A stretch of 64,000 bases of DNA from an uncultured Hyphomicrobiales bacterium (lineage in GTDB: Bacteria > Bacteroidota > Ignavibacteria > Kapaibacteriales > Kapaibacteriaceae), in the NCBI GenBank assembly GCA_964620125.1, contig CAZUGQ010000006.1:6216-70215 (forward strand), in the 5' to 3' direction. The translations under genes were made by a program, and so were the position numbers. The notes below the pieces were generated by a model. It had not been told where the DNA came from and did no database searches. It saw only the letters and a list, made by a program, of their open reading frames with translations. Every line of letters starts with the position of its first letter. The stretch's first letter is position 1. Positions 1 to 64,000 of this stretch are shown in pieces.

Positions 1-170
1 CGTGCCCATGTTCACACTTGTCTTGAAGGTACCACCTCCGAATGCCTCATTGATGGTGTAGACAACCTCACCAAGATTGTTCACAAGTTCAATGCGAACG
101 TCTCCTGCCTCGAGGTTAGCAGCTTCAATGTTGAACAGGCCACTCGTTGGGTTCGGGAACACATGAAGCT
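1..170 (-). other. T9SS C-terminal sorting domain (Por secretion tail) of the giant protein, partial; the last ~30 aa lie beyond the window
   Basis: Minus-strand translation contains VFPNPTSG...IELVNNLGEVVYT...FGGGTFKTSVNMGT, the canonical T9SS CTD beta-sandwich motifs. Confidence 0.75.
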
Positions 171-12100: not shown

Positions 12101-12294
12101 TGGCTGGTAATCGATGCAGTGATGTTAAACGCAACACCTTCGCACTGCGGCGATGCCAGCGAGGTCGCAATCGTAATCTGCGACCAAAGACTCGGTGGCG
12201 TGACGGCTCCCAGCATAAGTGCTAGAAGGAACGTCAGCACCACGAACCCTGAACGCCGTTGCGCCCCTAGAGTCGTGGAACCAAAGGATGTCAT
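1..12294 (-). CDS. Giant (>4,100 aa, 3' end beyond window start) T9SS-sorted cell-surface adhesin-like protein. It has a signal peptide, a ~330-aa N-terminal NIDO-like domain, about 40 tandem ~85-aa Ig-like beta-sandwich domains each with a conserved Cys pair, and a C-terminal T9SS sorting domain.
   Basis: Reverse-strand frame is open from the ATG at 12294..12292 (preceded by GGAGGA at a 5-nt spacer) to the window edge. The plus-strand track shows only short antisense fragments. The N-terminal translation MTSFGSTTLGAQRRSGFVVLTFLLALMLGAVTPPSLWSQ is a signal peptide. The recurrent motif is ...C...Y.W...GG.I.SG.GT..I.V.W...G...V.V.E....GC... The minus-strand translation of 1..180 reads ...HAPELHVFPNPTSGLFNIEAANLEAGDVRIELVNNLGEVVYTINEAFGGGTFKTSVNMGT, a typical Por_Secre_tail. 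Confidence 0.85.
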   Translation of the reverse strand, partial: MTSFGSTTLGAQRRSGFVVLTFLLALMLGAVTPPSLWSQITIATSLASPQCEGVAFNITASITSQDVPQPSAPAALLWPGGMLGQNAGGVANGPVNNLALGDDGISGEQNPQQTGGADFEFSFYGELLNLTNDGFYVASNGFITFLNGVDAGIIPANVPNVNGPNKTVILGNVDLDPAAGGNIWWQVQEDANGNYLVITYENVPFVNPFQANVVNMQLIIYEDGYAGTPSRIEWRLDDVPNPGAGFYGVFAGFENECGTAGNAVYQNALVNYAAINDEAYTSDPILVGPPYADVDIEYFDGATSMGTAGTFTPGVDPFIPPAFAVPPAFRTPGTHSYSAVVTYTFNGCETSQVTSNTVNFQVVALPVAQVITLGANRCGDATTTAGVPNSNAPNTFHWSSPSPAVTAFVPNNNNAAQNTTIFFNNALLAQGGTSVTINMEEQTSVPIVCASNPDATITSTFYRTPGVETPAGITGPGVNTAVNQPGNPCAGTTAIYTQAGASGVGATAPATLYRWVLTGAPVGTTMNGNPVSGGTVTVTTQHPTNTVSIAWPASTSHYSASLTVQPSNGTGGAAGVPGSNRSCAGPTSVVHTLQVNGVPAAATVVQTPAGTVCEQDNRTYSIAATPGSSYTWSITPGTAGVNWNATIPAPPNNHTITIDWLLPGTYSVSVTETTSGGCVRVHNPLNNIVVNPLPNPTWLLNPSQGCTYIGGTLESGRALYEYTYRILGVSGRSYNFTVLNGIFTNTNTSNWLVNGAGANLDAIVRWSLPGANWVSVTETIIATGCAVTITQNVTVTESPTPKTISGPGYVTPIAGNPCAGTGPHTYQISGPWPNGNNWSVSVLSGGVVSVALNLANGQFGVTYNAGVTSARIRITETNPAAPGCVTEREFNITVNPQPTGTVSVVPTAVCNGDGGVATFNPGVGTVLPGATYLWSTTTPLNIALTPPLNLPSVAFTATNPGPGVASGNLTITVTNPGVGGCAVAFTQSVNIVPDPTVLAPTVPVPICVGGTYAITGNASAYPGGGVTRNWNFQLTPVGAYSGAAPLSTSFNLNAAAAVWNVTIGDSSLADILAGGSFNLTITVTDNLSPASCATVGNFGPFTVETRPVRPLLDFPNPQVVCDGAYPQVYNITNYLPGLYSYSLATSAAVSAFVAPTFTVNDWGAPGAHTVDLTATDLITGCTRVQHYDITVVAQPVNPQPAPVITNATQDELCVDSLYFDNPSVVGPLAIDPTRIITYSAPVPLANHWYQWYVTNGFIITGTPGSYVSVGQFTTAALNATSCQVVWTGPTPGKVKYLVFTSDPNNPPPAACFATSIEPTLNLPLIPTVPLTFTTSSSAPGNKICEGETVDLILSSSEIGLDYRVEEWNGTSWVNTGVTPVAGTGAALNITVPASVLTITTSPITDHVFRITAKDQTFTPDISGPCEWLRTATDVITIQVYDTPNDIPVTITTTLVCEGDNVLVDVGTVGQPAQPHVMYELYRRQIFPVVGAYVGPIVSQMGIAPTITLTDNTTAGIGTGGPLLAVDNYEYEVRAFIPPAPLLPPASGCPATMTAHPTARIFEDPADPTVTFFPNPICWEEMLTVNLANTEAGVEYEVNVNGSFLSPQVILQGTGGAVSAMFNVAQIQPTNPVNFTVVNNVQVEARLVQNATYTRPIPTSACPVNYGTTNITVYEKPVAVVNGPTNSCGPSTATYTADPVTPAPPMYFSWLITTVPPAGTTPTFANPTISGTVNPFVVDWGIHLLNCDGTYNPLAQTIRMIATNSWGCTDTAFYNVTIEPTVADADIQGPTSSCIYGGFEEHLDTFYVERPAPCVFPAGTTYLWTMPSGVVSGAIRSGQFTPGIVAEWYTTGGTNIGTVQCDITLPPSHGGCTTTLLHDVVVYPLPVPVINGPTTVCQGDQNRVYTADNYPSDTYNWQVIGGTIDGGLGAGIVGDTAKRSGVGLNTISIDWLDTPNPNAFIRLRQVSSVGCMNVTTFNVVVNPTPVPVINGADKTCDNSVYTYSTANNAPNNTYLWTVLAGGNATITGGANTATATVLTGDIGGGSSFTLQLTETVLATNCTETVTKVVTIVEKPNPTITRVAPAGGAVGGACLGQTITYGNTDPVAPNPTYNYKWNVSNGAVVGTDEASTVVVTWNTVGTGTVTLNKWHTGSQCTTTVSQDVTITNAPAPTISGPLNVCGESSHTYSTPFIAGNTYAWSISGNGTITGGGTTSAATILFNNPTPGNTLAATIGVTETNTLSGCSASTNISVTIRYQPQVVTITRVSPAGPVNQACNNSTIVYSVPNNTDAIYQWSVTGGTIVSGGTTNQVTVQWTNVGTQTLTLVEKDETETCMATSTLNVGVTYQPVPAITGDAMPCTEDTRVYSTPDVPGSTYLWSLPSAGGTIMSGTTSHQVTVMWTLQGTRTVQVVETNGNCTATATLTVTVGKTPTSTAIARISPTGGVAIACVNQVITYGTSNNVGNTYLWNVTGGNFVGGINNTFQVSIEWTTVGAQTITLKETTAGTTCSKTVTQVVNVEDQPAPTIAGPTPVCTDDMSTYSVTAVAGHTYSWSISGGGTIMSSTTSNSLTVEWTTPGTWTVNVVQTNGTGNCFANASLLVTVGQTPTQTEITGDATVCYGSTETYSVTNVAGQSYTWTVTGGSIVSGAGTSSINVQWTSIGNQTVVVEIGTIGTNCETELFKNVSVEDQPAPSITGPAVVCTDDIATYGVNPVAGHTYAWTISGGGSIMSGVNSHEMTVEWSTGGTHTVTVVQTNGTGNCSALATLSVSVGQTPIQTSIAGDATVCHGSVEAYSVTNIAGQTYVWTVTGGVIVSGAGTSTINVEWTALGTNVVTVEISTNGTNCEKTLTLDVTVEEQPNPSIAGPNVVCTGDIASYSVAAVPGHSYLWSLSGGGSFTSGTVAPTATIQWTTAGTHTVTLKQDNATGNCTKTTTLSVLVNQTPVQTSIAGDATVCNGSVEAYSVTSIPGQSYIWTVTGGTITSGAGTNAITIQWTAMGLQTVEVEIQTIGTNCKVTLTKNVTVEFQPAPSISGDANVCTDTEESYSTPANAGSTYLWTVTGGIITSGVTSNEVTVKWTTAGTQTLTVTEKNASGNCQATATMSVIVSPKPSTTNITRLTPTGPVDQACETDVITYSTPFNATSSYQWTVTGGNIIGSSTSNTVTIKWTSLGNQTLTVVETTTGTDCQTTDVQNVTVTYKPAPNINGANVACINKDHVYFTPFVVGSAYAWSITPTNAFAPIVGYPNSNSIEIKWIQPGLHTVTVTETNIAGGCSTTVSMQVQVNEIPTPFISSTTGYGNPAGRRPGIVCNFSTHTYTTFATPGNTFVWAVTGGTIVSGQYTNTVQVTWGPAGQGTLSVTETIPGSDCITTDRDTFDIRPTPSPNITGNLNPCGNSVETYTTPFVTGNSYTWTVVGGTIISGQGTNTISVSWQNPSWPNTIAGSVSVTEWVTDVLPSMSCINSNTRSITVRPNPPVPTITGPSVVCATDLGDNPQTDNMVTYSTSIPATGSAQGFINYQWTVSSNGSIVGTSTSTSVNVRWTNAGSTPTTGTVTITQTSTWGCVVTASLNVTINPLPNPVVSGPTSVCLNTIHTYSTPGLPGHSYSWVVSGGNIIRSGQGTPNITVEWTVPGTHAVTVTETNTYGCVARNSLNVTVNELPSVTITASGPTTFCQGGDVTLSAPVGFASYVWNTGETSRSIVVHTGGSYFVRVTDENGCVGTSNTIVVNVFPSSLPIITVSGPTTFCEGGSVTLTAPSGFATYLWSTGANTQSIVVTEAGSYTVTVADGNGCTGTSTEVDVFVNSKPTPVLTVVGSTTVCSGDSVEVRAPNGYVSYTWRSERNINYGTGRSIFVKQTDTIYCEVVDANGCVGVSDTVIITVSPVPAPIVIPNGPTTFCDGGSVVLSAPDGYSSYFWSNGATTREITVVDGGSYTVVVTNNASCEAASVPTDVVVNPLPARPSITRSGDTLYANSAVARGYQWYRATGMPGQYAPISGATAHYLLVNTSGTYRVEIQDDNTCSSVSDGYDVTLTDVNDVVFAGHAPELHVFPNPTSGLFNIEAANLEAGDVRIELVNNLGEVVYTINEAFGGGTFKTSVNMGT
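2950..5300 (-). repeat. DNA-level periodic array (~510-nt period) of alternating A/B domain-pair repeats inside the giant gene. Copies are diverged at roughly 70-80% identity.
   Basis: Recurrent stretches such as ccaccgctgatggtccatgcatacgtatgacctgcaac / ccaccgctgattgaccaggagtatgtgtggccagcaac and gttaccgtccagatgtaggactgacctgg / gtaacagtccaaacgtaggtctgacctgc recur at ~510-nt spacing. The encoded protein motifs are AGQ.Y.W.VTGG.I.SGAGT..I.V.WT (type A) and AGH.Y.W.ISGGG.IMS (type B). Confidence 0.6.
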
Positions 12295-12367
12295 ACGATC
12301 CTCCGAAGAAGTGTAATGATTGATACAGGTTGTTTGCGTGTTGGAAATGGCCGCTGCCAGTGCAGCA

Positions 12368-12395
12368 AACGCCGAAAGGCGCCCTCGGCGCCGCG
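12368..12395 (-). promoter_or_regulatory. GC-rich palindromic element (CGCCGAAAGGCG overlapping GGCGCC-CTC-GGCGCC) in the leader, ~85 nt upstream of the giant gene start. Possible 5'-UTR structure.
   Basis: Self-complementary GGCGCC hexamers separated by 3 nt, plus an adjacent CGCC/GGCG stem with a GAAA tetraloop, seen directly in sequence. Confidence 0.25.
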
Positions 12396-12673
12396 TTGCA
12401 ATCTGGTTTTTTCGTGGACCGATTGTGCTCGATCCGGCCCCAATGTAGCTATCCATCATACTCGGCTAGTTCTCCGTTCCAGTGCAAAGGAACGGCGCAC
12501 ACCACCCCCAAACCGGGCGTGCGGTGTCGTCAAAGCGCCGCTAAAATACCGCAGGCTGGCATACGCGCCAAACAACATTTGACCACATCCGAAAGATGTT
12601 ACCAACGTCAACTGCCGTTTACACTCCGTAATACACATCTGCATGTGTTGTCCGTACCCTAACGATGAACAAA

Positions 12674-50250: not shown

Positions 50251-53200
50251 CTATCTTACCACCACCACGGGATATCGTACTGTTGTGTTGCCATCAAGTT
50301 CGATGGTGTACAGACCACTGGGAACGGTTGACACGTCTACCTGCACCTGTTGGTCACCAGGTTGCAACTGCAACGAAGGATACCCAACGATTTGTATTCC
50401 GCTAGCATCAAGAAGGCGAACGGTGATGTGTTGTACGCTGTTGCTGGCAACGGTGAGTTCAATATGACTTGTTGCTGGCTGCGGATATACAGCCTGAACG
50501 ATGAGTGACTCTCCAGTTGTAATGATGCGCCTACGTGGGTCTGGATGTTCGATGCGAAGTTCACCCTCAGTGTACGTAACGGGTATGGTCGATCCGAAGC
50601 CAAGGGATGCAGAATCAAGAATCAGAGGTGATACATCCACTGCCGCCATACCGGCATGGCCAACAAGCCGAACAATCTCTATGGTATCTGCAAACCTGCC
50701 CTCTACGCGGAAGTGTATTTCACGCCAGTCACCAACCACGTTTTGCGAAACAATCACTGCACTTCTTTCGCTGCTCGAAACTCCATTGGCCAGGTACAAT
50801 CGCGGATGAACGCGTAGAATACCTTCGAAGAAGCGCACACCATCATACGGTATGGACTCCTGAATGATGGCAACGATGGGCAAGGATGTGGTGTCACTCC
50901 GAGGGTCGGCAACTATGCGTGGTGCAGCAACAGTTGCAGTACCAACGTAGGAAGCCAGTCGCACCACGGCTTGGGCAGCACATGGCTGAGCACTGAGGGT
51001 AATTGAAGCGGCATTGCCAATCACTCCACCGGTGTAGCGGATGCGTATTGTAGCGGCTTCGCCTGGTTCAATGATCAACGGCATGGCGGTGAGCAGATCG
51101 AAAGGTTCACCAGCCGTGATGGAAGCACTATCCAGACGTACTCGATTCTCGCTGTTGTTTGTGATGGTGATCTCACGCTCAACAATCTCTGGGATGAACT
51201 GCAACGTTGCATGCGATAGGATAAGGTCGGCTCCACTTCCACGACCCAGAACGCGCACGGTTCGTCGAACACTCTGCTGATTGGCGTACTGGATGATTAC
51301 AACACCAGTGTCAAGGCCAAGCTTCGCCGGTACGAATTCAACTACTACTTCCAGTGTTGCACCGGGCTGGAGTATGCTGTCGGATACGGATTCAACAATT
51401 CTGAATGCAGACCCCAAGCCCCCTTCAACGAACACATCGTTGATCATTACTGGAACAGGATCATCGTTCCGCAGAACGGATAATCGCTTGATGCGTGAGC
51501 TGCCTACACACAGATCACCAAAATCGTCCTCCGGTATCAGCAGTGTAAGCTGCCGGTCTACAACCGTTACCTGAACCGGTACTGCAAACGTTGTTCCGCA
51601 GGATTGTACGTACACGGTATCTACAAGCCTTCCAGTGTCAAGAACGTTTGCCTCGAGGTGCAACGTCAGACACTCCCCAGGCTGTACCGTGTCGGCCACA
51701 AAGGGCGTGGCCAAGCGCAACCAACTTCCAGAAGGTACCTGGACGTCTGTAATGATGGCCATAACTGGTCCAGGATTGCAGACGCTTGCGGTTATAACGG
51801 TATCGCGCGTACTTCCTACCAACATGGTGGCAATCGTTACCGGAGAAACGTTCATCTGCACTGGCACAATGCGGAAGGGCGAATCACTTACGTCAGACTC
51901 TGGCACGCTTACTCTGCGGAGTAACAGATTATTGGTACTATCAATGCTGCTGGTAACGATGGTTGATCCGTCTGGACTAAACGCTATGTCAGTAAGCTTA
52001 TTCGCATGCCCCGCTGCAGAACCACTTGGTGGGAGTGTTCTCGCACTGGCAAGGTCATACACAACAAACTGTGGGTTGAACTCAAAGCCAAGGCCTAGGT
52101 AGGCATCGCTGGGACTGAACGTAAGGTTTACAACATCACTTCCTTCGCGGTACAGGATCTTCACGATCTTGTCCGTTGCCATGTCGTAGATGTATGTGCG
52201 TTGCTCGCGCGGCTCATTGACTGCACTGGTAAGCTGGGGCCCAGCAAGAGCGACAAGCCTGCCGGTAACGGACGCGGCCACCTTTGCGGTATACGGACCC
52301 AGGGCTTCCGCAATACCCGTCTGCGAACGATCGAGCTCTCTGCCATCAACGGAACTGTACGTGACTACTTCACCATCGAGCATGGAGGCAACGATGATGG
52401 ATCCATTCATCGAGGTACTTGCTGCAGTCTTGCCCAAAACAATGTTTGAGAGTGGTGCAAGGGTTTCGGGTTCCAATCGAGGAATGCGGGCACCCAACTT
52501 GGGCAGCAGGTAGAGAACCGATCCTGCTACGTCGCTGGAAACTCGTGCTACCAGTACATCCGCGGGCACGGCCTGTGTTGCCACTGCGGAGGGTGTTCCT
52601 TGATTGAATCGTAGCACAGTGCCTCCCTTTGTGTTGGCACGCACGGCAACGGCAGCGATGTTCCTTCCTGTACCAATGTAGCACAGCGCTTGTATGGGCG
52701 TGGCCGACAGATTGCCAAGCGTGTAGGTGTTCAGGCGCTGGCCGCTTACAACATCCCATTCAATGATGCTGCCGTTGCCGTGTCCTGATATCAGGTACCG
52801 TCCGTCAGCCGAGTACGCAACGGCGGTAACCGAAGCTTGTGGTCCCTGCAACCACATCGAACTTGTTGCCTCGAACTTCTGATACACGCGTATCCGCGCA
52901 CTATCCGAATACGACTCGGGAACCGTCCACATGTAGGTGCTGTCAAGCGTGCTATCGACAGCCTCCCACGTTCGCCCGTTGTTGCTGGTAAACTCCAGGT
53001 GCGCATAGAAGCCGCTCACCATGCCACTCCATGTAATCGGAATCATTTGGCAGGGGGCTAGGGTTTCGCCACCGTTGGGACTTGTAAGCCGGAGAATCGT
53101 CCGCCGCGGAAATGCCGAGGGATTGGCTACAACCTGAACGGTTGTTCGCATGCCACCTTCGAACGTAACAGTGAGCACATCACTGATTGGCTCATCGGTT

Positions 53201-53850
53201 GTTGGCGAGCAAACAAGGTCAATCCTATACTCCAAAGGCGACAGGATGTTCGTTGGTAACGGACCTGATCCGAACGATCCCTTCCAAATCACTTTGAATT
53301 GTGGCTGGGTGGTGGTGATGGACTCAAGTAGGCTGCTCCGCGCGTGCGGGGGAGTGCCAGACAACGCAGCCTGCGTTGCAACCACCTTGAGCTTGAGCGT
53401 ATCGGTGGAGCCGGCGGGAACTCGCCCAAAGTCAACAAACTTTGGAACGTTCCTACTCACACTATCGCGCACCACAACCGTTGCACCCTTATCAAGTGGC
53501 AAGGCTGAAGAGAATACCGTCGAGGCCGTTTCGCCTTCATAGCTAGCCACAATCGTTGCATTCAGCAAGCCGAAACGAAGAGCAAACCATTCCACGATAT
53601 GGATGCCATTCCCCGTGTGCGTAACCGTACTTGGCAGCATGCCAATGTTGGTTTCCAGCACGTGTGCCGTGTTGGAACCAAGCACTACTGGCTGGCCTTT
53701 GTACGTGCAGCGAATCTGTGCCCGGACGGCAGGGTAGGCAGTAACATCCAACGCGCTACCACTAGGAAACGCTACCTGCGTTATGGCGAACTGTGCATGC
53801 ACAGCCAAGCCCCCTATCAACAACAGGAAAGCAAGGATGGGAATGCGCAT
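50251..53850 (-). CDS. Large secreted WD40/beta-propeller repeat protein with multiple beta-sandwich domains and a T9SS C-terminal sorting domain (start chosen at MRIPILAFLLLIGGLAVHAQ)
   Basis: WD-like repeats (YSADGRYLISGHGNGSIIEWDVVSGQ; IAFSPDGSTIVTSS) and a C-terminus ...LLDASGIQIVGY...VPSGLYTIELDGNTTVRYPVVVVR. The ORF extends to 53907 with a non-signal-like extension. Confidence 0.75.
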   Translation of the reverse strand: MRIPILAFLLLIGGLAVHAQFAITQVAFPSGSALDVTAYPAVRAQIRCTYKGQPVVLGSNTAHVLETNIGMLPSTVTHTGNGIHIVEWFALRFGLLNATIVASYEGETASTVFSSALPLDKGATVVVRDSVSRNVPKFVDFGRVPAGSTDTLKLKVVATQAALSGTPPHARSSLLESITTTQPQFKVIWKGSFGSGPLPTNILSPLEYRIDLVCSPTTDEPISDVLTVTFEGGMRTTVQVVANPSAFPRRTILRLTSPNGGETLAPCQMIPITWSGMVSGFYAHLEFTSNNGRTWEAVDSTLDSTYMWTVPESYSDSARIRVYQKFEATSSMWLQGPQASVTAVAYSADGRYLISGHGNGSIIEWDVVSGQRLNTYTLGNLSATPIQALCYIGTGRNIAAVAVRANTKGGTVLRFNQGTPSAVATQAVPADVLVARVSSDVAGSVLYLLPKLGARIPRLEPETLAPLSNIVLGKTAASTSMNGSIIVASMLDGEVVTYSSVDGRELDRSQTGIAEALGPYTAKVAASVTGRLVALAGPQLTSAVNEPREQRTYIYDMATDKIVKILYREGSDVVNLTFSPSDAYLGLGFEFNPQFVVYDLASARTLPPSGSAAGHANKLTDIAFSPDGSTIVTSSIDSTNNLLLRRVSVPESDVSDSPFRIVPVQMNVSPVTIATMLVGSTRDTVITASVCNPGPVMAIITDVQVPSGSWLRLATPFVADTVQPGECLTLHLEANVLDTGRLVDTVYVQSCGTTFAVPVQVTVVDRQLTLLIPEDDFGDLCVGSSRIKRLSVLRNDDPVPVMINDVFVEGGLGSAFRIVESVSDSILQPGATLEVVVEFVPAKLGLDTGVVIIQYANQQSVRRTVRVLGRGSGADLILSHATLQFIPEIVEREITITNNSENRVRLDSASITAGEPFDLLTAMPLIIEPGEAATIRIRYTGGVIGNAASITLSAQPCAAQAVVRLASYVGTATVAAPRIVADPRSDTTSLPIVAIIQESIPYDGVRFFEGILRVHPRLYLANGVSSSERSAVIVSQNVVGDWREIHFRVEGRFADTIEIVRLVGHAGMAAVDVSPLILDSASLGFGSTIPVTYTEGELRIEHPDPRRRIITTGESLIVQAVYPQPATSHIELTVASNSVQHITVRLLDASGIQIVGYPSLQLQPGDQQVQVDVSTVPSGLYTIELDGNTTVRYPVVVVR

Positions 53851-53924
53851 GGCGCAGGTACTGAGCTTGATGTGAACCATGAAGGGTGCAAAGACGGCAG
53901 TGCGCAAGGTTTCGTTACACGAGA

Positions 53925-58007: not shown

Positions 58008-59864
58008 ATGAAGCGTTCGCTCCTTGCGATTGCTATGTGCTGCGCCATTGTGGCCAATGCACAAGATTTTCCAGTGAAGATCGAGCCTGTGACAATGATT
58101 CCCTATCTGCAGGGAAGAGTTGTTGTTCCACCAGCACCTCTGAAGTATCAGAACATCTTTGTTGGTGGCGTTGACAGCGTTGCCATTCTCGACGCTGCTG
58201 GACGTCCAGCAGGAAAAGCTCCAGCAAAACAGTGGCATGACTACATTGGCTATGCCTCCGATCCATCCGGCATGTCGCTGGGATATGCCGTGGTGAATCA
58301 TGAAATGACGGAAGCAAATCCGAAGATCGGCGACGGCGGTGGCATGACGATGTTCAAGCTCGGCAAGAAGTCCGACGGTACCCTCGAAGTACTCGAGCAA
58401 ACCTTGGCAGACGGCCGTACCGGCAAGTTTTTCAACGTGGACTTCGTGAACACCGTTGGAGAAACAGGCATGAACTGCGGTGGTATCTCAAAGAATAATC
58501 GCATCTGGACTGCAGAAGAATGGTACCAAACAAGCAATGCCGGTATCTACGCTAATGGTGAAGGCTTCCGCGACACCAGCGATTTTGTGATCGGCTCCAA
58601 AGTTCCATCCGGTTTTCCAGGTCTTGACGGCAAGGCAATCAAGCGCTATCAAAATCTGAACTGGATGGTAGAAATTGACCCGGTAAACGCCAAGGCCATT
58701 CGCAAGCAGTACAACTGGAGCCGTCAAGGTTTCGAAGCTGGCGTAGTCATGGATGACAACAAGACGGTATACCTGTTCGAAGATGGTGCTGCTGGACGTT
58801 CCATTCTTACCAAGTTCGTTGCTGACGAACCCGGCGACATGACCAAGGGCAAGCTGTACTTCTATAAGCAGGATGCAAACGCCTTTACGGGCACGTGGGT
58901 GCAAGTACCAAACGACCCAGCAACAAACTGGGATATCATGGTTGCTCCTCATACATGGGCAGCACAAAACGGCATTACTGGTTTCACCCGCCTCGAATGG
59001 GGTCAAGTAAACAAGACGGACGGTAAGATCTACATCACGGAAACGGGTAACGATAATCCATCCAATGCATACAAGAGCGCAAAGGCTGCTGGTTGGACAC
59101 TACCAAAGCACCTGCGCGATCGCGCCGCTTCCATGGGAATCACAGAAGATAGTTCAGCATATCGCGACTACTATGGTCGTGTTCTGGTGTTTGACCCTGC
59201 CGACAACAGCATCCGCTCCTTCCTCGAAGGCGGACCAGCGCTCACGGACGCCCAAGCTGTTCCAAGTATGTACCCTGAAAAGCACCTTTCAAACCCAGAC
59301 GGCATCGGCTTCCTCTATGTAAATGGCAAGACGTTTATGATGATACAGGAAGACCTTAACGGTGTAAGCATGGGTCGGATGCCAAACACCGGCATGCGTG
59401 GCACCAACTGCGAAGCCTGGTTGCTTGACATGTCGAAAGAGCCAACCATCAACAACCTGTATCGCTTGGCTATCACCCCGTATGGCACTGAAGTTACTGG
59501 CTTTGCTACGTACGACGATGGAAATGTTGTGCTCATCAATTCCCAACATCCAATTAGCGCCGAGATTACGGATGCTGCTGCAAAGAACTCTCTCACCTTT
59601 GCTCTGAGCGGTCTTAAGCAACTAGTGTCCAGCATCGAGGAGAGTGAAGGGGACAATCCATCCGGCATCAAGGTGTTCCCCAACCCTACGTCGAGCGAGT
59701 TGAATTTCTCCGAGCAGATTGATGCTGCTCTCTACAACGCCGCTGGTGAGCGAGTTCGCGAAGTTCGTGGTGCAAGCTCGATTGGTGTTGCCGATCTGCC
59801 AAATGGTGTGTACTACCTCATGTCGAGTGATGGAAAGACGCAACAGATTGTTCTGCAGCGCTAA
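58008..59864 (+). CDS. Secreted PhoX-like (DUF839) beta-propeller phosphatase-family protein with T9SS C-terminal sorting domain
   Basis: Signal peptide MKRSLLAIAMCCAIVANAQ and a beta-propeller-like repeat pattern with NPDGIGF and related motifs. The C-terminus reads ...IKVFPNPTSSELNFSEQ...LPNGVYYLMSSDGKTQQIVLQR. The PhoX assignment is tentative. Confidence 0.45.
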   Translation: MKRSLLAIAMCCAIVANAQDFPVKIEPVTMIPYLQGRVVVPPAPLKYQNIFVGGVDSVAILDAAGRPAGKAPAKQWHDYIGYASDPSGMSLGYAVVNHEMTEANPKIGDGGGMTMFKLGKKSDGTLEVLEQTLADGRTGKFFNVDFVNTVGETGMNCGGISKNNRIWTAEEWYQTSNAGIYANGEGFRDTSDFVIGSKVPSGFPGLDGKAIKRYQNLNWMVEIDPVNAKAIRKQYNWSRQGFEAGVVMDDNKTVYLFEDGAAGRSILTKFVADEPGDMTKGKLYFYKQDANAFTGTWVQVPNDPATNWDIMVAPHTWAAQNGITGFTRLEWGQVNKTDGKIYITETGNDNPSNAYKSAKAAGWTLPKHLRDRAASMGITEDSSAYRDYYGRVLVFDPADNSIRSFLEGGPALTDAQAVPSMYPEKHLSNPDGIGFLYVNGKTFMMIQEDLNGVSMGRMPNTGMRGTNCEAWLLDMSKEPTINNLYRLAITPYGTEVTGFATYDDGNVVLINSQHPISAEITDAAAKNSLTFALSGLKQLVSSIEESEGDNPSGIKVFPNPTSSELNFSEQIDAALYNAAGERVREVRGASSIGVADLPNGVYYLMSSDGKTQQIVLQR

Positions 59865-59895
59865 GCGTTCGTAGTCGGTCAATTTTCAGGAGAAG

Positions 59896-59935
59896 GGATC
59901 AGCAAGAGATTCTCTTGCTGATCCTTTCTCGTTTC
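59896..59935 (+). terminator. Strong intrinsic terminator after the PhoX-like gene: ~13-bp stem GGATCAGCAAGAG/CTCTTGCTGATCC followed by TTTCTCGTTTCC
   Basis: Near-perfect inverted repeat 30 nt after the stop codon, immediately followed by a T-rich tract. Confidence 0.65.
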
Positions 59936-59954: not shown

Positions 59955-61895
59955 ATGAAAGTCCTTCTGTTTTTCACTGCAGCAGCCGCCTCAGGTGTAC
60001 TGGTTGGCACAACACAACCCAATTACCATCAGCAGCGATATGATCGCGTATGGTCGTTTATTGCTGATACACGTACCGCTGTGTACAACAGGTGCGACTC
60101 TTTGAGTGTCGCCGTTGAAGCAATGTCTGGCCCGAGGGATGTACCTGCTGTGCTTGATGCCTACGAACGTTTGCGCGGCGCATGGAAAGCCATCGAACCA
60201 CTAGCCGAATACAGCGATCCACAACAGGTAAGCTGGTTCATCAACGGAGCGCCGTTGCCCCGGCTCGATCCAAAATCACAGTACGTTGAAGTTCTCGAGC
60301 CCTCCGGCCTGCAGGTTATCGACGAACTTCTGCATGCACCTGATGAAGATGTGCTGGCCTCTCAACAGCATCTTCAAACACTCGTGGGCTCACTACGTTC
60401 CAGCTTGACAGACCTGTTCTCGGTACTTGTTAACTCCCGTTGGACGAGCCGCATGCAGCTCGAAGCGTGCCGGTCTGGATTGATCCGCATTACGTCGCTT
60501 GGGCTCACTGCCTTCGACCGACCAGCCTCCGACCCCCGCCCTTCCGACAACGTGGTGCCACTGCAGACCATCGGCTTTGTCTTGTGGGGTTTTCGTCAGC
60601 AGCTCGAAGCAACCAATGCTAAATATCTCGCATCCAGGGCTGATTCACTCCTTAGCCTTGGCATTCGAATGATACGGTCTGCAAACAGTGATGACGACCT
60701 AGATAAGGCTGAACTCATCAGAGCCTCGTTAGATCCGCTTTATGCGGTGGTAGTGGACATACAGATGGCCTTGCAGATCGAGTTTGCTGATGAAGCACTC
60801 GCCATCACCCCGCCGCTGGATGCTCGCTCTCGAAGCATGTTTGCGAACAACACACTGGATCCGTACACCTGGGCAGGCGTTAGCCGCAAATCCGTTACGG
60901 ATTCTATGATTGAGCTTGGCAGAACCTTGTTCTTCGATCCTGTGCTCTCCAGCAATGGTGAGCGGGCTTGCGCCTCCTGCCACCTTCCGGAGCTTGCGTT
61001 CACGGATGGACGAGTTAAGAGTATGGCATTTGACCGTCAGGGAACAGTTCGGCGTAATGCACCAACACTCATCAACGCCGTGCTTGCCAAGCGATTCTTT
61101 CTTGACCTTCGTGGTGAACGGCTCAGCGAAGTGGTAGAGCATGTGATTAATGATGAGCGTGAGTTTAACTTCAATGTGCTAAGCGTAGTGCGACGCCTGG
61201 AGTCTTCACCTGAATACAGGGCCCGGTTTACTACTGTTTTTGCCCAATGGGGCGAGTCAGCAATTACCCCAACAAATGTGAACATTGCCTTGGCTGCATA
61301 CCTTGGTACACTGGTCAATCTTAACAGTCCTGTTGATCGGTATCTGCGAGGTGAAGCTGTAACGTTGAATCCATCCGTGCGGCGGGGGTTCAACCTCTTT
61401 ATGGGGAGGGCTGCCTGTGGCACATGCCATTTTGCCCCTACCTTCGCTGGATATGTTCCCCCCGCCTTCATGGAATCGGAAAGCGAGGTGCTCGGCATTC
61501 CAACTGCACCAGATACTGCCAATGCCATCCTTGATCCAGACCCCGGCAGGTACGGTGGCGCATTGCGCGATGGTGCCGAGATTTTTCGCCACTCGTTTAA
61601 AACGCCAACCATCCGCAACGTGAAACTCACAGCCCCTTACATGCACAACGGCGCCTTCCCAAGTCTGCGCGATGTGGTAAAGTTTTATGATCTGGGAGGG
61701 GGCTCAGGCATTGGCGCCATTGCTGCTCACCAAACGTTGGCATCGGACAGACTTGACTTCACCGATAAGGACTACGACGATCTGATTGCCTTCATGGAAG
61801 CATTAACGGATACGACCGGATTTGCTCGAATGCCAGCACATCTTCCCTCCGTGCCTGGCATGTCGGATCACCGTGAGATTGGCGGAGAATATTAA
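59955..61895 (+). CDS. Di-heme cytochrome c peroxidase (CCP/MauG family) with a ~300-aa N-terminal extension of unknown function
   Basis: Two CxxCH motifs (CASCH, CGTCH) and the CCP-family context ...FFDPVLSSNGERACASCH...APTLINAV...; ...TPTIRNVKLTAPYMHNGAFPSLRDVVKFY.... Signal peptide present. Confidence 0.8.
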   Translation: MKVLLFFTAAAASGVLVGTTQPNYHQQRYDRVWSFIADTRTAVYNRCDSLSVAVEAMSGPRDVPAVLDAYERLRGAWKAIEPLAEYSDPQQVSWFINGAPLPRLDPKSQYVEVLEPSGLQVIDELLHAPDEDVLASQQHLQTLVGSLRSSLTDLFSVLVNSRWTSRMQLEACRSGLIRITSLGLTAFDRPASDPRPSDNVVPLQTIGFVLWGFRQQLEATNAKYLASRADSLLSLGIRMIRSANSDDDLDKAELIRASLDPLYAVVVDIQMALQIEFADEALAITPPLDARSRSMFANNTLDPYTWAGVSRKSVTDSMIELGRTLFFDPVLSSNGERACASCHLPELAFTDGRVKSMAFDRQGTVRRNAPTLINAVLAKRFFLDLRGERLSEVVEHVINDEREFNFNVLSVVRRLESSPEYRARFTTVFAQWGESAITPTNVNIALAAYLGTLVNLNSPVDRYLRGEAVTLNPSVRRGFNLFMGRAACGTCHFAPTFAGYVPPAFMESESEVLGIPTAPDTANAILDPDPGRYGGALRDGAEIFRHSFKTPTIRNVKLTAPYMHNGAFPSLRDVVKFYDLGGGSGIGAIAAHQTLASDRLDFTDKDYDDLIAFMEALTDTTGFARMPAHLPSVPGMSDHREIGGEY

Positions 61896-61900
61896 CATCC

Positions 61901-63226
61901 ATGAAGCAACCGCTGTGCATCGTTCTGGTGGGTATTGTTGGTCATGTCCTTTCGATTGCACAGCCAGCAGCCATAACGTTTACTCAGCACGTTGCACCGA
62001 TTATCTACCGCAACTGCACTCCTTGCCATGTTGATGGCGGTCCCGGACCATTCCCCCTTGTCACGTACTCCCAGGTTAGTGCCAAGGCGTCCATGATTGC
62101 CATGGTTACGCAGGACCGGTACATGCCTCCACAACGCAACGATCCTACGTACCGAAGCTTCGCCCACGAACGAAGGCTTACGGATAGCGACATTCAAACC
62201 ATCAGGTCTTGGGTGCAATCGGGAAAAAAGGAGGGAGCGCAACGGTTCCTACCAAAGCCCCCTACCACGCAGGCAAACCGATCGATACATGGTAAGCCGC
62301 ACATCACACTAAGCATGCCGTCGGCAGTTCCCATTCCCGGCAACAACCAGCAGACGTATGTGTGTTACGCCATTCCGTTTGAGTTGGACAAAGAATATCA
62401 GGCACGTGGCATCGAGTATGTACCCAGCAATCGCAAGCTTGCACACCATGCTAGCTATCAGATTCTTGAAGTAGCACCCGATGTTATGCTCGACAGCATA
62501 CCACGTTACTTTTTCTACGAACCTGGACGGCGTGTTGTTGATGACGTAGACTACAATTACTTCAAGCTCATCAGTCCTACGTATGGTCCACCAATCGAAA
62601 CCTTCCATGGCGGTTGGCTTCCGGGAAGCTCACCGTGGGTGTACCCAGATGGCATAGGCTTCCGATTACCTCGCCGCGGCGTGCTCATGTTGCGCAACCT
62701 GCACTACGCACCAACACCGGTTCCATCGTCTGACTCCGTTACCGTGCATATCTATCTGGGTAAGAAGGAATCACGAACCGTGACCTTTGCTGCATTCCGA
62801 CCAGCAATCGGTGTTGCCGATACCGTTATCCGAGCCAACTCGGTAGACACTCACCGCATCTATGTTCGGATACCGCAGGACATCAGCCTGCTAAACATCA
62901 ACCCACACATGCATCGTTTGGGGCGCAGCTTTACGGTCTGGGCAGAAACTCCATCGAAGGATACTATCAAGTTGTGCCGCATCCCCGACTGGGACTTTGA
63001 TTGGCAGGACTTTTATCTGTTCAAGAATCCTGTTCACATTCCGGCAGGTAGCGTGTTGAATGCCATTGCCATTTTCGACAACACACCGGCCAACCCCAAT
63101 AACCCATTCTACCCACCGCGCGATGCACCATTCGAAGTTGGAATGGATGACACCAACGAGATGATGCGCTTAGTGCTTCTAGCTCTTGAGTATCGAAAAG
63201 GCGACGAAAAGATCAGGCTTGAGTGA
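61901..63226 (+). CDS. Fusion of an N-terminal c-type cytochrome domain (PSCyt1-like, CTPCH ... YMPP) with a copper type II ascorbate-dependent monooxygenase (PHM/DBH)-like two-domain region
   Basis: Heme motif VAPIIYRNCTPCH and DRYMPPQ. Putative CuH ligands are LAHHASY and a downstream His. Putative CuM ligands are NPHMHRLG and NEMM, comparable to the PHM HxH...DEMC arrangement. Confidence 0.5.
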   Translation: MKQPLCIVLVGIVGHVLSIAQPAAITFTQHVAPIIYRNCTPCHVDGGPGPFPLVTYSQVSAKASMIAMVTQDRYMPPQRNDPTYRSFAHERRLTDSDIQTIRSWVQSGKKEGAQRFLPKPPTTQANRSIHGKPHITLSMPSAVPIPGNNQQTYVCYAIPFELDKEYQARGIEYVPSNRKLAHHASYQILEVAPDVMLDSIPRYFFYEPGRRVVDDVDYNYFKLISPTYGPPIETFHGGWLPGSSPWVYPDGIGFRLPRRGVLMLRNLHYAPTPVPSSDSVTVHIYLGKKESRTVTFAAFRPAIGVADTVIRANSVDTHRIYVRIPQDISLLNINPHMHRLGRSFTVWAETPSKDTIKLCRIPDWDFDWQDFYLFKNPVHIPAGSVLNAIAIFDNTPANPNNPFYPPRDAPFEVGMDDTNEMMRLVLLALEYRKGDEKIRLE

Positions 63227-63250: not shown

Positions 63251-64000
63251 ATGATCGATTGCCAGAACACGATGCGGTTTGCCCGCATCGTACTTGTGTT
63301 GGGCATGTACCTTGTAGCGGCTTTCGCTGTATCTGCAGCCGATACTCTGCGAGTATGCACGTACAATGTGCTGAACTACGGTACCAGCAATGATGACGGT
63401 CGAATCCCCATGTATGCCACGATCATGCAGGAAATCAAACCTGATATTCTGGTCTGCCAGGAAGTGGTTGACAACTCCTTGGGGCCACAATTCATCAGCA
63501 ACGTTCTCACATGGTCAAGCTTTGGTGCTTCACCGTTTGTAGACGGCCGCGACACAGACAATCAGCTCTTCTACGACCTCAGAAAACTTCGTCTGCTCAC
63601 CCATCGGCAGATCGGCACCGAGCTGCGCAACATCAGCGAATACATGCTGGAGCGTTTTCCAGTGGCTGGCCAGCAACCCGACACGCTGGTAGTGTACTCA
63701 GGTCATCTGAAGGCAAACAACGACGATGCTTCGGCAGCACAGCGTGGCCGCGAAGTGGCAGCAATGCAGGCCACCGCTTCCTCAGCCCCCTACCTTTTTT
63801 TCTGTGGCGACCTCAACGTATACAGTCCAAACGAAACTGCCTATCGTGCCCTCACGCAGCCTGCAATGGGGCGCACCTTTGTTGATCCCTTGGGCACATC
63901 GTGGGTACGAAACACATCGCAACATGCAGCCCTGTACACACAATGCACTCGTGCCAACACCATCAGCGGTTGTGGCGGTGGCGTTGACGGCGGTCTTGAC
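63251..64000 (+). CDS. Secreted endonuclease/exonuclease/phosphatase (EEP)-family protein, 3' end beyond window
   Basis: Signal peptide (RIVLVLGMYLVAAFAVSAA) and EEP N-terminal motifs LRVCTYNVLNYG...DILVCQEV. Confidence 0.7.
   Translation, partial: MIDCQNTMRFARIVLVLGMYLVAAFAVSAADTLRVCTYNVLNYGTSNDDGRIPMYATIMQEIKPDILVCQEVVDNSLGPQFISNVLTWSSFGASPFVDGRDTDNQLFYDLRKLRLLTHRQIGTELRNISEYMLERFPVAGQQPDTLVVYSGHLKANNDDASAAQRGREVAAMQATASSAPYLFFCGDLNVYSPNETAYRALTQPAMGRTFVDPLGTSWVRNTSQHAALYTQCTRANTISGCGGGVDGGLD

What the first reader, a model, noticed from the sequence alone, without database searches (positions are those of the whole stretch)
59955..63226. Adjacent extended di-heme peroxidase and cytochrome c-PHM/DBH-like copper monooxygenase fusion
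The first gene is a 646-aa CCP/MauG-family protein with a ~300-aa N-terminal extension that lacks heme motifs. The second gene, 5 nt downstream, fuses a PSCyt1-like mono-heme cytochrome c domain (CTPCH...YMPP) to a region carrying PHM/DBH-like ligand sets (HH...H and HMH...NEMM). A heme c domain could supply electrons to the Cu centres in place of ascorbate. Together with the peroxidase this looks like a periplasmic oxidative-modification or oxidative-stress module. Such c-type-cytochrome-PHM fusions are poorly characterised.
Basis: partly seen in the sequence, partly recalled or inferred. Interest (0 to 1): 0.55.

Follow-up and report, generated by a model that had tools for sequence, protein, structure and literature searches.

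The report
Haem-wired bacterial PHM-like copper monooxygenase
A bacterial gene fuses a c-type cytochrome to a complete copy of the two-copper enzyme that animals use to make peptide hormones and noradrenaline; it belongs to a large family I found no study of, and here it sits in what looks like a phosphate-scavenging operon, next to a MauG-like haem enzyme whose regular partner is the phosphatase gene upstream.

Summary

**Gene 2 (61901-63226)** encodes a signal peptide, a mono-haem cytochrome c and a two-domain PHM/DBH fold.
- All six copper ligands and PHM's Gln272 equivalent are invariant in 43 homologues.
- The AlphaFold model has pLDDT 92, and its top 31 PDB matches are all PHM or DBH.
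- The family is large (4,337 clusters at 50% identity), almost all labelled Bacteroidota, and I found no paper on it.

**Gene 1 (59955-61895)** is not a plain peroxidase.
- The haem domain is MauG-like, with an invariant Tyr at MauG's axial Tyr294 position.

**The "peroxidase + Cu enzyme module" reading is only partly supported.**
- Gene 1's regular partner is the upstream T9SS-tagged PhoX-like gene. This arrangement matches the phosphate-starvation-induced phoX/mauG-like operon of Flavobacterium johnsoniae.
- Gene 2's usual partner is a thioredoxin-like redoxin, either adjacent or fused.
- The two genes are linked only in one subclade, and syntenic relatives lack gene 2.

The substrate of gene 2 is unknown.

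The parts
58008..59864 (+). PhoX-like beta-propeller phosphoesterase gene with a T9SS C-terminal sorting domain.
   Evidence: Pfam PhoX E 2.8e-20 and Por_Secre_tail E 7.9e-6. NCBIfam T9SS type A sorting domain is above its cut-off. Only distantly related to solved PhoX (E 0.004). Lies immediately upstream of the gene 1 homologue in all 9 orthologous loci.
59890..59930 (+). Hairpin with a 19-bp stem followed by UUUCUCGUUU, in the 90-nt gap between the phoX-like gene and gene 1. Possibly a partial terminator or a 3' end stabiliser.
   Evidence: Free energy -33.1 kcal/mol, z-score -6.4, and none of 200 shuffles folds as well. L081 and L001 have 12-nt perfect inverted repeats at the same position; L084, L005 and L086 have none.
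59955..61895 (+). Gene 1: a periplasmic fusion of an imelysin/EfeO-M75-like domain and a MauG-like di-haem domain (646 aa).
60024..60854 (+). Gene 1 residues ~24-300: an all-helical imelysin/Peptidase_M75 (EfeO-like) fold with no HxxE motif.
60882..61892 (+). Gene 1 residues ~310-646: the di-haem CCP/MauG domain. Haem motifs are C339xxCH (60969-60983) and C488xxCH (61416-61430). Tyr578 (61686-61688) sits at the MauG Tyr294 position.
   Evidence: Pfam CCP_MauG E 1.1e-40. The second haem domain matches MauG best (E 7e-12), ahead of MbnH, BthA and bCcPs, and the alignment places Y578 on MauG Y294. Y578 is invariant in 38 homologues.
61901..63226 (+). Gene 2: signal peptide, mono-haem cytochrome c and a PHM/DBH-like two-copper domain pair (441 aa).
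61964..62245 (+). Gene 2 residues ~22-115: the class I-type cytochrome c domain. C39xxC42H43 lies at 62015-62029 and the presumed axial Met75 at 62123-62125.
   Evidence: C39, C42, H43, M75, P76 and P77 are invariant. Pfam hits to Cytochrome_CBB3 and Haem_bd are weak.
62288..63223 (+). Gene 2 residues ~130-441: the PHM/DBH-like double jelly roll. The CuH set is H182/H183 (62444-62449) and H268 (62702-62704). The CuM set is H336/H338 (62906-62914) and M421 (63161-63163).
   Evidence: The Foldseek top 31 PDB hits are all PHM or DBH, E 3.6e-12 to 2.3e-9. The profile alignment places HH, H and HxH on PHM H107/H108, H172 and H242/H244. All six ligands are invariant.
63272..64000 (+). Start of an endonuclease/exonuclease/phosphatase-family gene, co-directional and cut off by the window end. 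An alternative start is at 63251.
   Evidence: Open frame found. Pfam Exo_endo_phos E 2e-5, just above its cut-off. The same gene follows in syntenic L081/L082 and L084/L085.

Best explanation
The region is part of a co-directional four-gene cluster: phoX-like (T9SS-secreted), then gene 1, then gene 2, then an Exo_endo_phos gene. The cluster most likely serves organic-phosphate scavenging.

**Gene 1** is a periplasmic imelysin/EfeO-like domain fused to a MauG-like di-haem domain.
- Shown: across its family this gene sits beside a secreted phosphoesterase gene.
- Inferred, by analogy with MauG and MbnH and following the proposal of Lidbury et al.: it uses peroxide or O2 at its haems to oxidatively mature or activate that phosphatase before secretion.
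- My speculation: the helical domain may handle the metal.

**Gene 2** is a separate enzyme that was recruited into this operon in one lineage.
- Shown: it has a signal peptide, one c-type haem site, a PHM/DBH fold and complete, invariant CuH and CuM ligand sets.
- Inferred mechanism: the haem takes single electrons from the periplasmic pool and passes them to CuH. In most relatives a thioredoxin-like partner may also contribute. CuH reduces CuM, which binds O2 and hydroxylates a C-H bond.
- The substrate is unknown. It is probably not a glycine-extended peptide, because PHM's substrate-binding Arg240, Asn316 and Tyr318 are replaced.
For: Gene 2 identity:
- The ligands C39, C42, H43, M75, H182, H183, H268, H336, H338 and M421, plus Q369 (PHM Q272), are invariant in 43 sequences.
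- The family profile hits PHM at E 2.4e-4, with the ligands aligned.
- The model has pLDDT 92.4, and its top 31 PDB matches are PHM or DBH.
- 38 of 43 members hit Pfam Cu2_monoox_C.

Gene 1 context:
- The phoX-like gene is directly upstream in all 9 orthologous loci.
- A phosphoesterase lies within two genes in 39 of 51 eligible metagenome loci. This is PhoX-like in 33 and the unrelated Pfam PF04185 family in 6.

Literature:
- In all Flavobacterium genomes phoX is in an operon with a MauG-like peroxidase.
- Both genes are strongly induced by phosphate depletion.
- PhoX from F. johnsoniae was inactive when expressed in a P. putida mutant lacking its own phoX (PMC8812569; PMC8115612).

Gene 2 context:
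- A thioredoxin-like redoxin lies directly upstream in 42 cases (44 loci) among the 83 examined; its commonest motif, CPLC, is present in 26 of the 49 cluster members, and 13 have no CxxC.
- Redoxin-cytochrome c-PHM fusions exist.

Linkage of genes 1 and 2: the trio is kept in 9 of 9 closest loci despite rearrangements.
Against: - No activity, metal content or expression was measured here.
- The window's PhoX-like protein is only distantly related to solved PhoX (E 0.004), and its active-site residues were not checked.
- Orthology to Fjoh_2477/2478 was not tested directly.
- MauG's inter-haem Trp93 is Leu383 here and Tyr in the family consensus, so MauG-type bis-Fe(IV) chemistry is not assured.
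- The window protein itself is below Pfam gathering scores for both Cu2 monooxygenase domains.
- The haem-to-CuH distance could not be measured.
- A strong hairpin between phoX-like and gene 1 could separate transcription units.
- Why a copper monooxygenase would sit in a phosphatase operon is unexplained.
Confidence: 0.6

Rival explanations
1. Genes 1 and 2 form a dedicated two-gene periplasmic module. The peroxidase either removes H2O2 leaked by the copper enzyme or works with it on a common substrate or in oxidative-stress defence.
For: - The genes are 5 nt apart on one strand.
- The 9 closest gene 2 orthologues all have a gene 1 homologue within about 5 kb, including rearranged loci L004, L006 and L007.
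Against: - None of 83 loci chosen through gene 1 has gene 2.
- Syntenic L084/L085 lack gene 2 exactly between gene 1 and the EEP gene.
- 71 of 80 genome loci with gene 2 homologues have no gene 1.
- L083, a 51% identical gene 2 homologue, has a redoxin upstream instead.
- Gene 1 has Tyr rather than Met at the high-potential haem and lacks the bCcP distal His, which is unlike detoxifying bCcPs.
Confidence: 0.12
2. Gene 2 is the protein substrate of gene 1 in this subclade. The MauG-like enzyme would oxidatively modify the copper protein, as MbnH converts a Trp of MbnP into a kynurenine copper ligand.
For: - Gene 1's best NCBIfam hit is the MbnH family (E 4.5e-49).
- MbnH (6e1c) is among the top PDB matches.
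- The adjacent gene encodes a copper protein.
Against: - The NCBIfam score of 167 is far below the MbnH cut-off of 363.
- Most gene 2 homologues have no MauG-like neighbour, yet they keep the same standard His/Met ligand sets, so no extra modified ligand is needed.
- Gene 1's regular neighbour is a phosphatase.
Confidence: 0.06
3. The PHM-like part is not a substrate-hydroxylating enzyme. Instead it would be a copper-handling or electron-transfer protein, for example a cuprous oxidase, an O2 or H2O2 reductase, or a copper-delivery factor working with a TlpA-like thioredoxin as in CuA assembly.
For: - The regular partner is a thioredoxin-like redoxin (commonest motif CPLC, 26 of 49 cluster members), either adjacent or fused.
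- PHM's substrate-binding residues are not conserved.
- No substrate is evident from the gene context.
Against: - The full noncoupled two-site ligand arrangement is strictly conserved, including Met421 and the Gln272 equivalent. This is the signature of the O2-activating PHM/DBH mechanism.
- The gene occurs inside SusC/SusD nutrient-uptake loci.
- Some relatives carry T9SS sorting tails, which suggests action on external substrates.
Confidence: 0.12
4. The adjacency has no functional meaning. Gene 2 was inserted by chance between gene 1 and the EEP gene and is expressed and used independently.
For: - The gene is present or absent at exactly this site among syntenic relatives.
- Gene 2's family has other, more frequent contexts.
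Against: Linkage is retained in Bacteroidia-labelled and other-lineage MAGs with three different gene orders (L001-L005, L004, L006, L007). Chance would not preserve this.
Confidence: 0.15

Closest known systems
Peptidylglycine alpha-hydroxylating monooxygenase (PHM) and dopamine beta-hydroxylase (DBH), the eukaryotic copper type II ascorbate-dependent monooxygenases
   Same: - Same two-jelly-roll fold.
- Same CuH (His-His...His) and CuM (His-x-His...Met) ligand sets.
- Same conserved Gln (PHM Q272), invariant across the family.
   Different: - Bacterial and periplasmic.
- About 15-17% identical.
- Carries an N-terminal c-type cytochrome domain where the eukaryotic enzymes rely on ascorbate.
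- PHM's substrate-binding R240, N316 and Y318 are N334, R423 and V425 here.
- Has a family-specific WDFxWQxxY motif and a longer loop before the Met.
- The window protein is below Pfam gathering scores.
Flavobacterium johnsoniae phoX-like / MauG-like operon (Fjoh_2478 / Fjoh_2477), Lidbury et al. ISME J 2021 and PNAS 2022
   Same: - A PhoX-family gene (PF05787) lies next to a CCP_MauG gene (PF03150), and the PhoX-like protein is exported.
- In Flavobacterium both genes are strongly induced by phosphate depletion.
- The authors propose that the MauG-like protein is needed to make PhoX active.
   Different: - Orthology was not tested here.
- Fjoh_2478 is a lipoprotein, whereas the window protein has a T9SS tail.
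- The papers do not mention an imelysin-like domain, a cytochrome c-PHM gene or an EEP gene in the operon.
MauG (tryptophan tryptophylquinone biogenesis), MbnH and BthA, the di-haem enzymes that oxidise protein substrates
   Same: - Two c-type haems.
- Tyr at the axial-ligand position of the six-coordinate haem (Y578 = MauG Y294).
- No bCcP-type distal His.
- The second haem domain is more similar to MauG, MbnH and BthA than to bCcPs.
- Encoded next to a candidate protein substrate.
   Different: - The inter-haem Trp (MauG W93) is Leu here and Tyr in the consensus.
- Scores are far below the NCBIfam MauG and MbnH cut-offs.
- Has a 300-residue imelysin-like N-terminal domain.
- The neighbour is a phosphatase, not an amine dehydrogenase or MbnP.
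EfeO/EfeM (Peptidase_M75) with the haem peroxidase EfeB, and the imelysin-like proteins IrpA and ICMP
   Same: - As in EfeUOB, an M75-type domain is combined with a haem peroxidase in the periplasm.
   Different: - Here the two are fused in one chain.
- The peroxidase is a di-haem c enzyme, not a DyP.
- The HxxE motif is absent.
- No EfeU-type permease was seen in the loci examined.

Membership tests
PHM/DBH copper type II monooxygenases | Two-domain jelly-roll catalytic core | tested here: met
   AlphaFold model pLDDT 92.4. The Foldseek top 31 PDB hits are all PHM or DBH, E 3.6e-12 to 2.3e-9, with 306-335 aligned columns.
PHM/DBH copper type II monooxygenases | CuH site: His-His plus a distant His (PHM H107, H108, H172) | tested here: met
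   H182, H183 and H268 are invariant in 43 sequences. They align to PHM vHH and qvHY in the profile alignment.
PHM/DBH copper type II monooxygenases | CuM site: His-x-His plus Met (PHM H242, H244, M314) | tested here: met
   H336, H338 and M421 are invariant, and HxH aligns to PHM HtH. The equivalence of M421 with M314 rests on invariance, spacing and a pairwise alignment to a PHM fragment that I recalled from memory. That fragment's numbering is self-consistent and it overlaps the sequence printed.
PHM/DBH copper type II monooxygenases | Score above the Pfam gathering threshold for Cu2_monooxygen (PF01082) and Cu2_monoox_C (PF03712) | tested here: not met
   For the window protein, PF03712 scores 17.8 bits against a cut-off of 23, and PF01082 does not hit. 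Among relatives, 38 of 43 hit PF03712 (best E 2.1e-8) and 2 hit PF01082, all at E <= 0.01.
PHM/DBH copper type II monooxygenases | PHM peptide-binding residues R240, N316 and Y318 | tested here: not met
   The aligned positions are N334, R423 and V425. The residue roles come from established knowledge of the substrate-bound PHM structure 1OPM.
PHM/DBH copper type II monooxygenases | Copper content, reductant dependence and O2-dependent hydroxylation | not testable with these tools
   Needs purified protein.
Class I c-type cytochrome domain | CxxCH haem attachment site, a distal Met, and export by a signal peptide | tested here: met
   C39, C42, H43 and M75-P-P are invariant. The N-terminal hydrophobic leader is read directly from the sequence. 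Pfam hits to Cytochrome_CBB3 and Haem_bd are below their cut-offs for the window protein.
   PSCyt1 was not listed for the window protein at E <= 1. It was also not among the families hit by the 43 relatives.
MauG/MbnH-type di-haem enzymes | Two CxxCH haems, with a Tyr axial ligand on the six-coordinate haem | tested here: met
   CxxCH at residues 339 and 488. The alignment 'vvkfyd' / 'ailfyn' places Y578 on MauG Y294. Y578 is invariant in 38 sequences.
MauG/MbnH-type di-haem enzymes | Trp between the two haems (MauG W93, bCcP W94) | tested here: not met
   The aligned residue is L383; the family consensus at this position is Tyr.
MauG/MbnH-type di-haem enzymes | Score above the NCBIfam equivalog cut-offs (TIGR03791 MauG, TIGR04039 MbnH) | tested here: not met
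   159 bits against a cut-off of 444, and 167 bits against a cut-off of 363.
Bacterial cytochrome c peroxidase (bCcP) in the strict sense | His/Met high-potential haem and a distal His switch on the peroxidatic haem | tested here: not met
   The Met275 position of P. nautica CCP carries Y578, and the His71 position carries F359 (alignment).
Imelysin / Peptidase_M75 / EfeO-like | Fold of two helical bundles | tested here: met
   [not shown]
Imelysin / Peptidase_M75 / EfeO-like | HxxE metal-binding motif | tested here: not met
   There is no HxxE in residues 1-310, and no invariant His in the N-terminal domain.
Bacteroidota phoX / mauG-like phosphate-starvation operon | A PhoX-family gene next to a CCP_MauG gene | tested here: met
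Bacteroidota phoX / mauG-like phosphate-starvation operon | Induction by phosphate depletion, and dependence of phosphatase activity on the MauG-like gene | not testable with these tools
   Induction is reported for F. johnsoniae only. The dependence is a published hypothesis, not a shown result.

The most novel reading that the evidence does not exclude
A periplasmic PHM-type copper monooxygenase, wired to the respiratory or thiol electron pool through its own haem c instead of ascorbate, has been recruited into a phosphate-scavenging operon. There it would hydroxylate a carbon next to phosphorus or nitrogen in organophosphorus compounds, such as phosphonates or aminoalkyl phosphoesters. This would make them cleavable by the neighbouring PhoX-like and EEP enzymes, giving a copper-based counterpart of the iron-dependent PhnY*/PhnZ route.
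Probability: 0.1. Interest if true: 0.85.

Novelty: new variant of a known kind. Interest (0 to 1): 0.55.

Why it matters
PHM and DBH are textbook eukaryotic enzymes. How electrons travel between their two distant copper sites is still debated, and they need ascorbate.

A soluble bacterial relative could help in several ways.
- It has a built-in haem electron donor and, in many relatives, a fused thioredoxin-like domain. That would give a system in which electron entry can be triggered and followed by spectroscopy.
- The family is large (thousands of sequence clusters, almost all labelled Bacteroidota), occurs in nutrient-uptake loci and sometimes carries secretion tags. It probably represents an unrecognised oxidative step in how these bacteria process external organic matter.

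Separately, imelysin-MauG-like fusions sit beside two unrelated families of secreted phosphatases. This makes the published idea that Bacteroidota phosphatases need oxidative maturation sharper and directly testable.

Tried and rejected
- **Sub-profile search.** A profile of the last 120 residues only (A3) was run against the PDB to show the Met alignment. It found only chance hits. I fell back on a pairwise alignment to a remembered PHM fragment.
- **Exact protein look-up.** Looking up the window's own gene 2 protein returned nothing. Relatives P0003 and P0012 were used instead.
- **Promoter and terminator scan.** Hit counts did not exceed those in shuffled sequence (8 promoter-like sites against a shuffle mean of 5.1, sd 2.1; 3 terminator-like sites against 5.6), and the scan missed the strong hairpin found by eye.
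- **Literature.** Five searches for cytochrome c-PHM fusions or bacterial PHM/DBH homologues found nothing relevant.
- **Rejected: PSCyt1 label** for the cytochrome domain.
- **Rejected: gene 1 as a peroxide-detoxifying bCcP**.
- **Rejected: gene 2 as a true peptidylglycine hydroxylase,** because the substrate-binding residues are not conserved.
- **Rejected: the EEP gene as a conserved member of the trio.** It is present only in the window's nearest relatives.
- **No redoxin partner nearby.** No close TlpA-like redoxin is encoded in the window.
- **Not done.** I did not check the PhoX active-site residues, test orthology to Fjoh_2477/2478, or measure the haem-to-copper distance, because model coordinates are not exposed.

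Full report
**Observation**

- Gene 1 has CxxCH only at residues 339 and 488, and nothing haem-like in its first ~305 residues.
- Gene 2 has one CxxCH (C39-T-P-C-H43), then M75-P-P, H182-H183, H268, H336-M-H338 and N-E-M421-M.

**Gene 2**

The sequence evidence is as follows.
- On its own the window protein gives only a sub-threshold Pfam hit to Cu2_monoox_C (E 0.0025, 17.8 bits against a cut-off of 23) and nothing in the PDB by sequence.
- It has hundreds of full-length homologues.
- In an alignment of 43 of them (32-62% identity to the window protein), every proposed cofactor residue is invariant. These are C39, C42, H43, M75, P76, P77, H182, H183, H268, H336, H338 and M421.
- A profile of that alignment finds PHM in the PDB (E 2.4e-4). 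It places HH on PHM H107/H108, H268 on H172, HxH on H242/H244, and the invariant Q369 on PHM Q272.
- 38 of the 43 sequences hit Cu2_monoox_C at E <= 0.01, and 2 hit the N-terminal Cu2_monooxygen domain.

The structural evidence agrees. The AlphaFold model is confident (pLDDT 92.4, pTM 0.86). Its 31 best PDB matches are all PHM or DBH (E 3.6e-12 to 2.3e-9) and cover both jelly-roll domains.

Three qualifications apply.
- The equivalence of M421 with PHM M314 rests on invariance, spacing and an alignment to a PHM fragment that I recalled from memory. The fragment's numbering is self-consistent and it overlaps the sequence printed.
- PHM's peptide-binding R240, N316 and Y318 are N334, R423 and V425 here, so the substrate is unlikely to be a glycine-extended peptide.
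- The cytochrome domain matches Cytochrome_CBB3 and Haem_bd weakly and does not match PSCyt1.

All three were tested and none holds.

**Size and shape of the gene 2 family**

- A profile search of 1.84 billion cluster representatives gives 4,337 proteins at E <= 1e-30 and 12,479 at E <= 1e-10.
- A capped scan of one genome per species returned 596 confirmed matches. Nearly all of the 80 best loci listed are labelled Bacteroidota, and they include cultured Pedobacter, Chitinophaga, Hymenobacter, Parapedobacter and Ohtaekwangia.
- Variants include forms with a T9SS sorting tail, tandem duplicates, and fusions with a Redoxin/AhpC-TSA domain at either end.
- I found no paper on such proteins. One paper explicitly treats PHM as the eukaryotic branch of its clan (PMC8812541).

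**Gene 1**

- The haem part is a CCP_MauG domain (E 1.1e-40).
- Its second haem domain resembles MauG most (E 7e-12). MbnH and BthA come next, and classical peroxidases are at 5e-7 or weaker.
- The alignment puts Tyr578 on MauG's axial Tyr294. The earlier alignment implies the same position as bCcP Met275.
- Tyr578 is invariant in 38 homologues.
- The bCcP distal His71 position is Phe359. The inter-haem Trp is Leu383, and Tyr in the family consensus.
- The protein scores far below the NCBIfam MauG and MbnH cut-offs.

Gene 1 is therefore MauG-like but a family of its own.

The N-terminal extension is now identified.
- 14 of 38 homologues hit Peptidase_M75.
- The model of this part is all-helical and confident.
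- The HxxE motif of metal-binding M75 proteins is absent.

**Context**

Upstream, at 58008-59864, lies a PhoX-family beta-propeller gene with a T9SS sorting domain. Downstream, from 63272 to the window end, an Exo_endo_phos gene begins. Gaps between the four co-directional genes are 90, 5 and 24-45 nt.

*Loci chosen through gene 2 (80 genome loci plus 3 look-ups).*
- The phoX-like/gene 1 pair is nearby only in the 9 closest orthologues: L001-L007, L081 and L082.
- There it is always present, in three different arrangements.
- Elsewhere the regular neighbour is a ~195-aa thioredoxin-like redoxin, directly upstream in 42 cases (44 loci). Its commonest motif, CPLC, is present in 26 of the 49 cluster members, and 13 have no CxxC.
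- In the Pedobacter, Chitinophaga and related loci examined, the pair often lies in a ROK - SusC - SusD - redoxin - gene 2 - FG-GAP/ASPIC - PAP2 locus.

*Loci chosen through gene 1 (83 loci).*
- None has a gene 2 homologue.
- 39 of 51 eligible loci have a phosphoesterase within two genes. It is PhoX-like in 33 and the unrelated Pfam family PF04185 in 6.
- Relatives L084/L085, syntenic with the window, carry phoX-like, gene 1 and the EEP gene with only 21 nt where gene 2 would be.

**Link to published work**

Lidbury et al. report the following for Flavobacterium (PMC8812569; PMC8115612).
- In all Flavobacterium genomes the phoX-like gene is in an operon with a MauG-like c-type cytochrome peroxidase.
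- Both Fjoh_2478 and Fjoh_2477 are strongly induced by phosphate depletion.
- The PhoX-like protein gave no activity when expressed in a Pseudomonas putida mutant lacking its own phoX.
- They suggest the MauG-like protein makes a cofactor that PhoX needs.

The window shows the same two-gene core. I did not test orthology directly.

**Interpretation**

Gene 1 is best read as the phosphatase-associated maturation or activation factor of this operon, not as gene 2's peroxidase. Gene 2 is an independent haem-wired PHM/DBH-type copper enzyme of unknown substrate that joined this operon in one lineage and can be lost from it.

The electron path haem c to CuH to CuM, followed by O2 activation, is inferred from complete conservation of the cofactor residues and was not measured. 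The recurrent redoxin partner, adjacent or fused, may be a second electron source or a maturation factor.

Retention of the trio through rearrangements argues that the linkage is functional in that subclade. What the copper enzyme would do for phosphate acquisition is open.

**Verdict**

- Novelty: a new variant of a known kind.
- Interest is moderate (0.55). The family is large, I found no study of it, and it is mechanistically attractive, but its function is unresolved and Pfam-level annotation already hints at the domain.

Noticed in passing
window 1-12465, minus strand: A single open reading frame of at least 4,155 codons runs off the start of the window. It would encode a giant protein. 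Its nature was not examined.
   Followed up: no
window 59890-59930: A hairpin with a 19-bp stem (-33.1 kcal/mol, z-score -6.4), followed by a U-rich tract, lies between the phoX-like gene and gene 1. L081 and L001 have 12-nt perfect inverted repeats at the same intergenic position; three other relatives have none. It may set the ratio of phosphatase to downstream products.
   Followed up: partly
window 63272-64000 (alternative start 63251): An endonuclease/exonuclease/phosphatase-family gene with a signal peptide starts 24-45 nt after gene 2 and is cut by the window end. It also follows in syntenic relatives, with or without gene 2.
   Followed up: partly
L110-L113, L119-L121, L127, L133 (for example L111:5438-6805): In these metagenome loci the imelysin-di-haem fusion lies directly downstream of a PF04185 'Phosphoesterase family' gene rather than a PhoX-like gene. 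The same accessory enzyme is therefore paired with two unrelated phosphatase families.
   Followed up: partly
P0254, P0373, P0383, P0245, P0352; P0260, P0321: Some relatives of gene 2 are fused to a Redoxin/AhpC-TSA domain, at the N-terminal or C-terminal end, and P0245 holds two such units. Others carry a T9SS sorting tail, which implies a cell-surface or secreted haem-copper enzyme.
   Followed up: partly
L017, L031, L079 and others (for example L031:1007-15438): In the Pedobacter-type loci examined, gene 2 homologues sit in a conserved locus. The order is ROK regulator, SusC, SusD, redoxin, cytochrome c-PHM, FG-GAP/ASPIC-UnbV protein, PAP2-family protein, and in L031 an alpha-L-fucosidase.
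   Followed up: partly
L021, L027, L036, L080: Two paralogous cytochrome c-PHM genes occur per locus, adjacent or near-adjacent in the Chitinophaga loci L021, L036 and L080 and about 5.5 kb apart in L027 (labelled Flavihumibacter). One protein (P0241, 1,064 aa) holds two copies plus EF-hand motifs.
   Followed up: no
window 50251-53907, minus strand: A 1,218-aa protein. Its ~1,220-aa counterpart at the same position in syntenic L081/L084 has beta-propeller and Ig-like Pfam hits. In the window and in those loci it is followed by two ABC ATPase genes and a Pfam-less multi-pass membrane protein.
   Followed up: no
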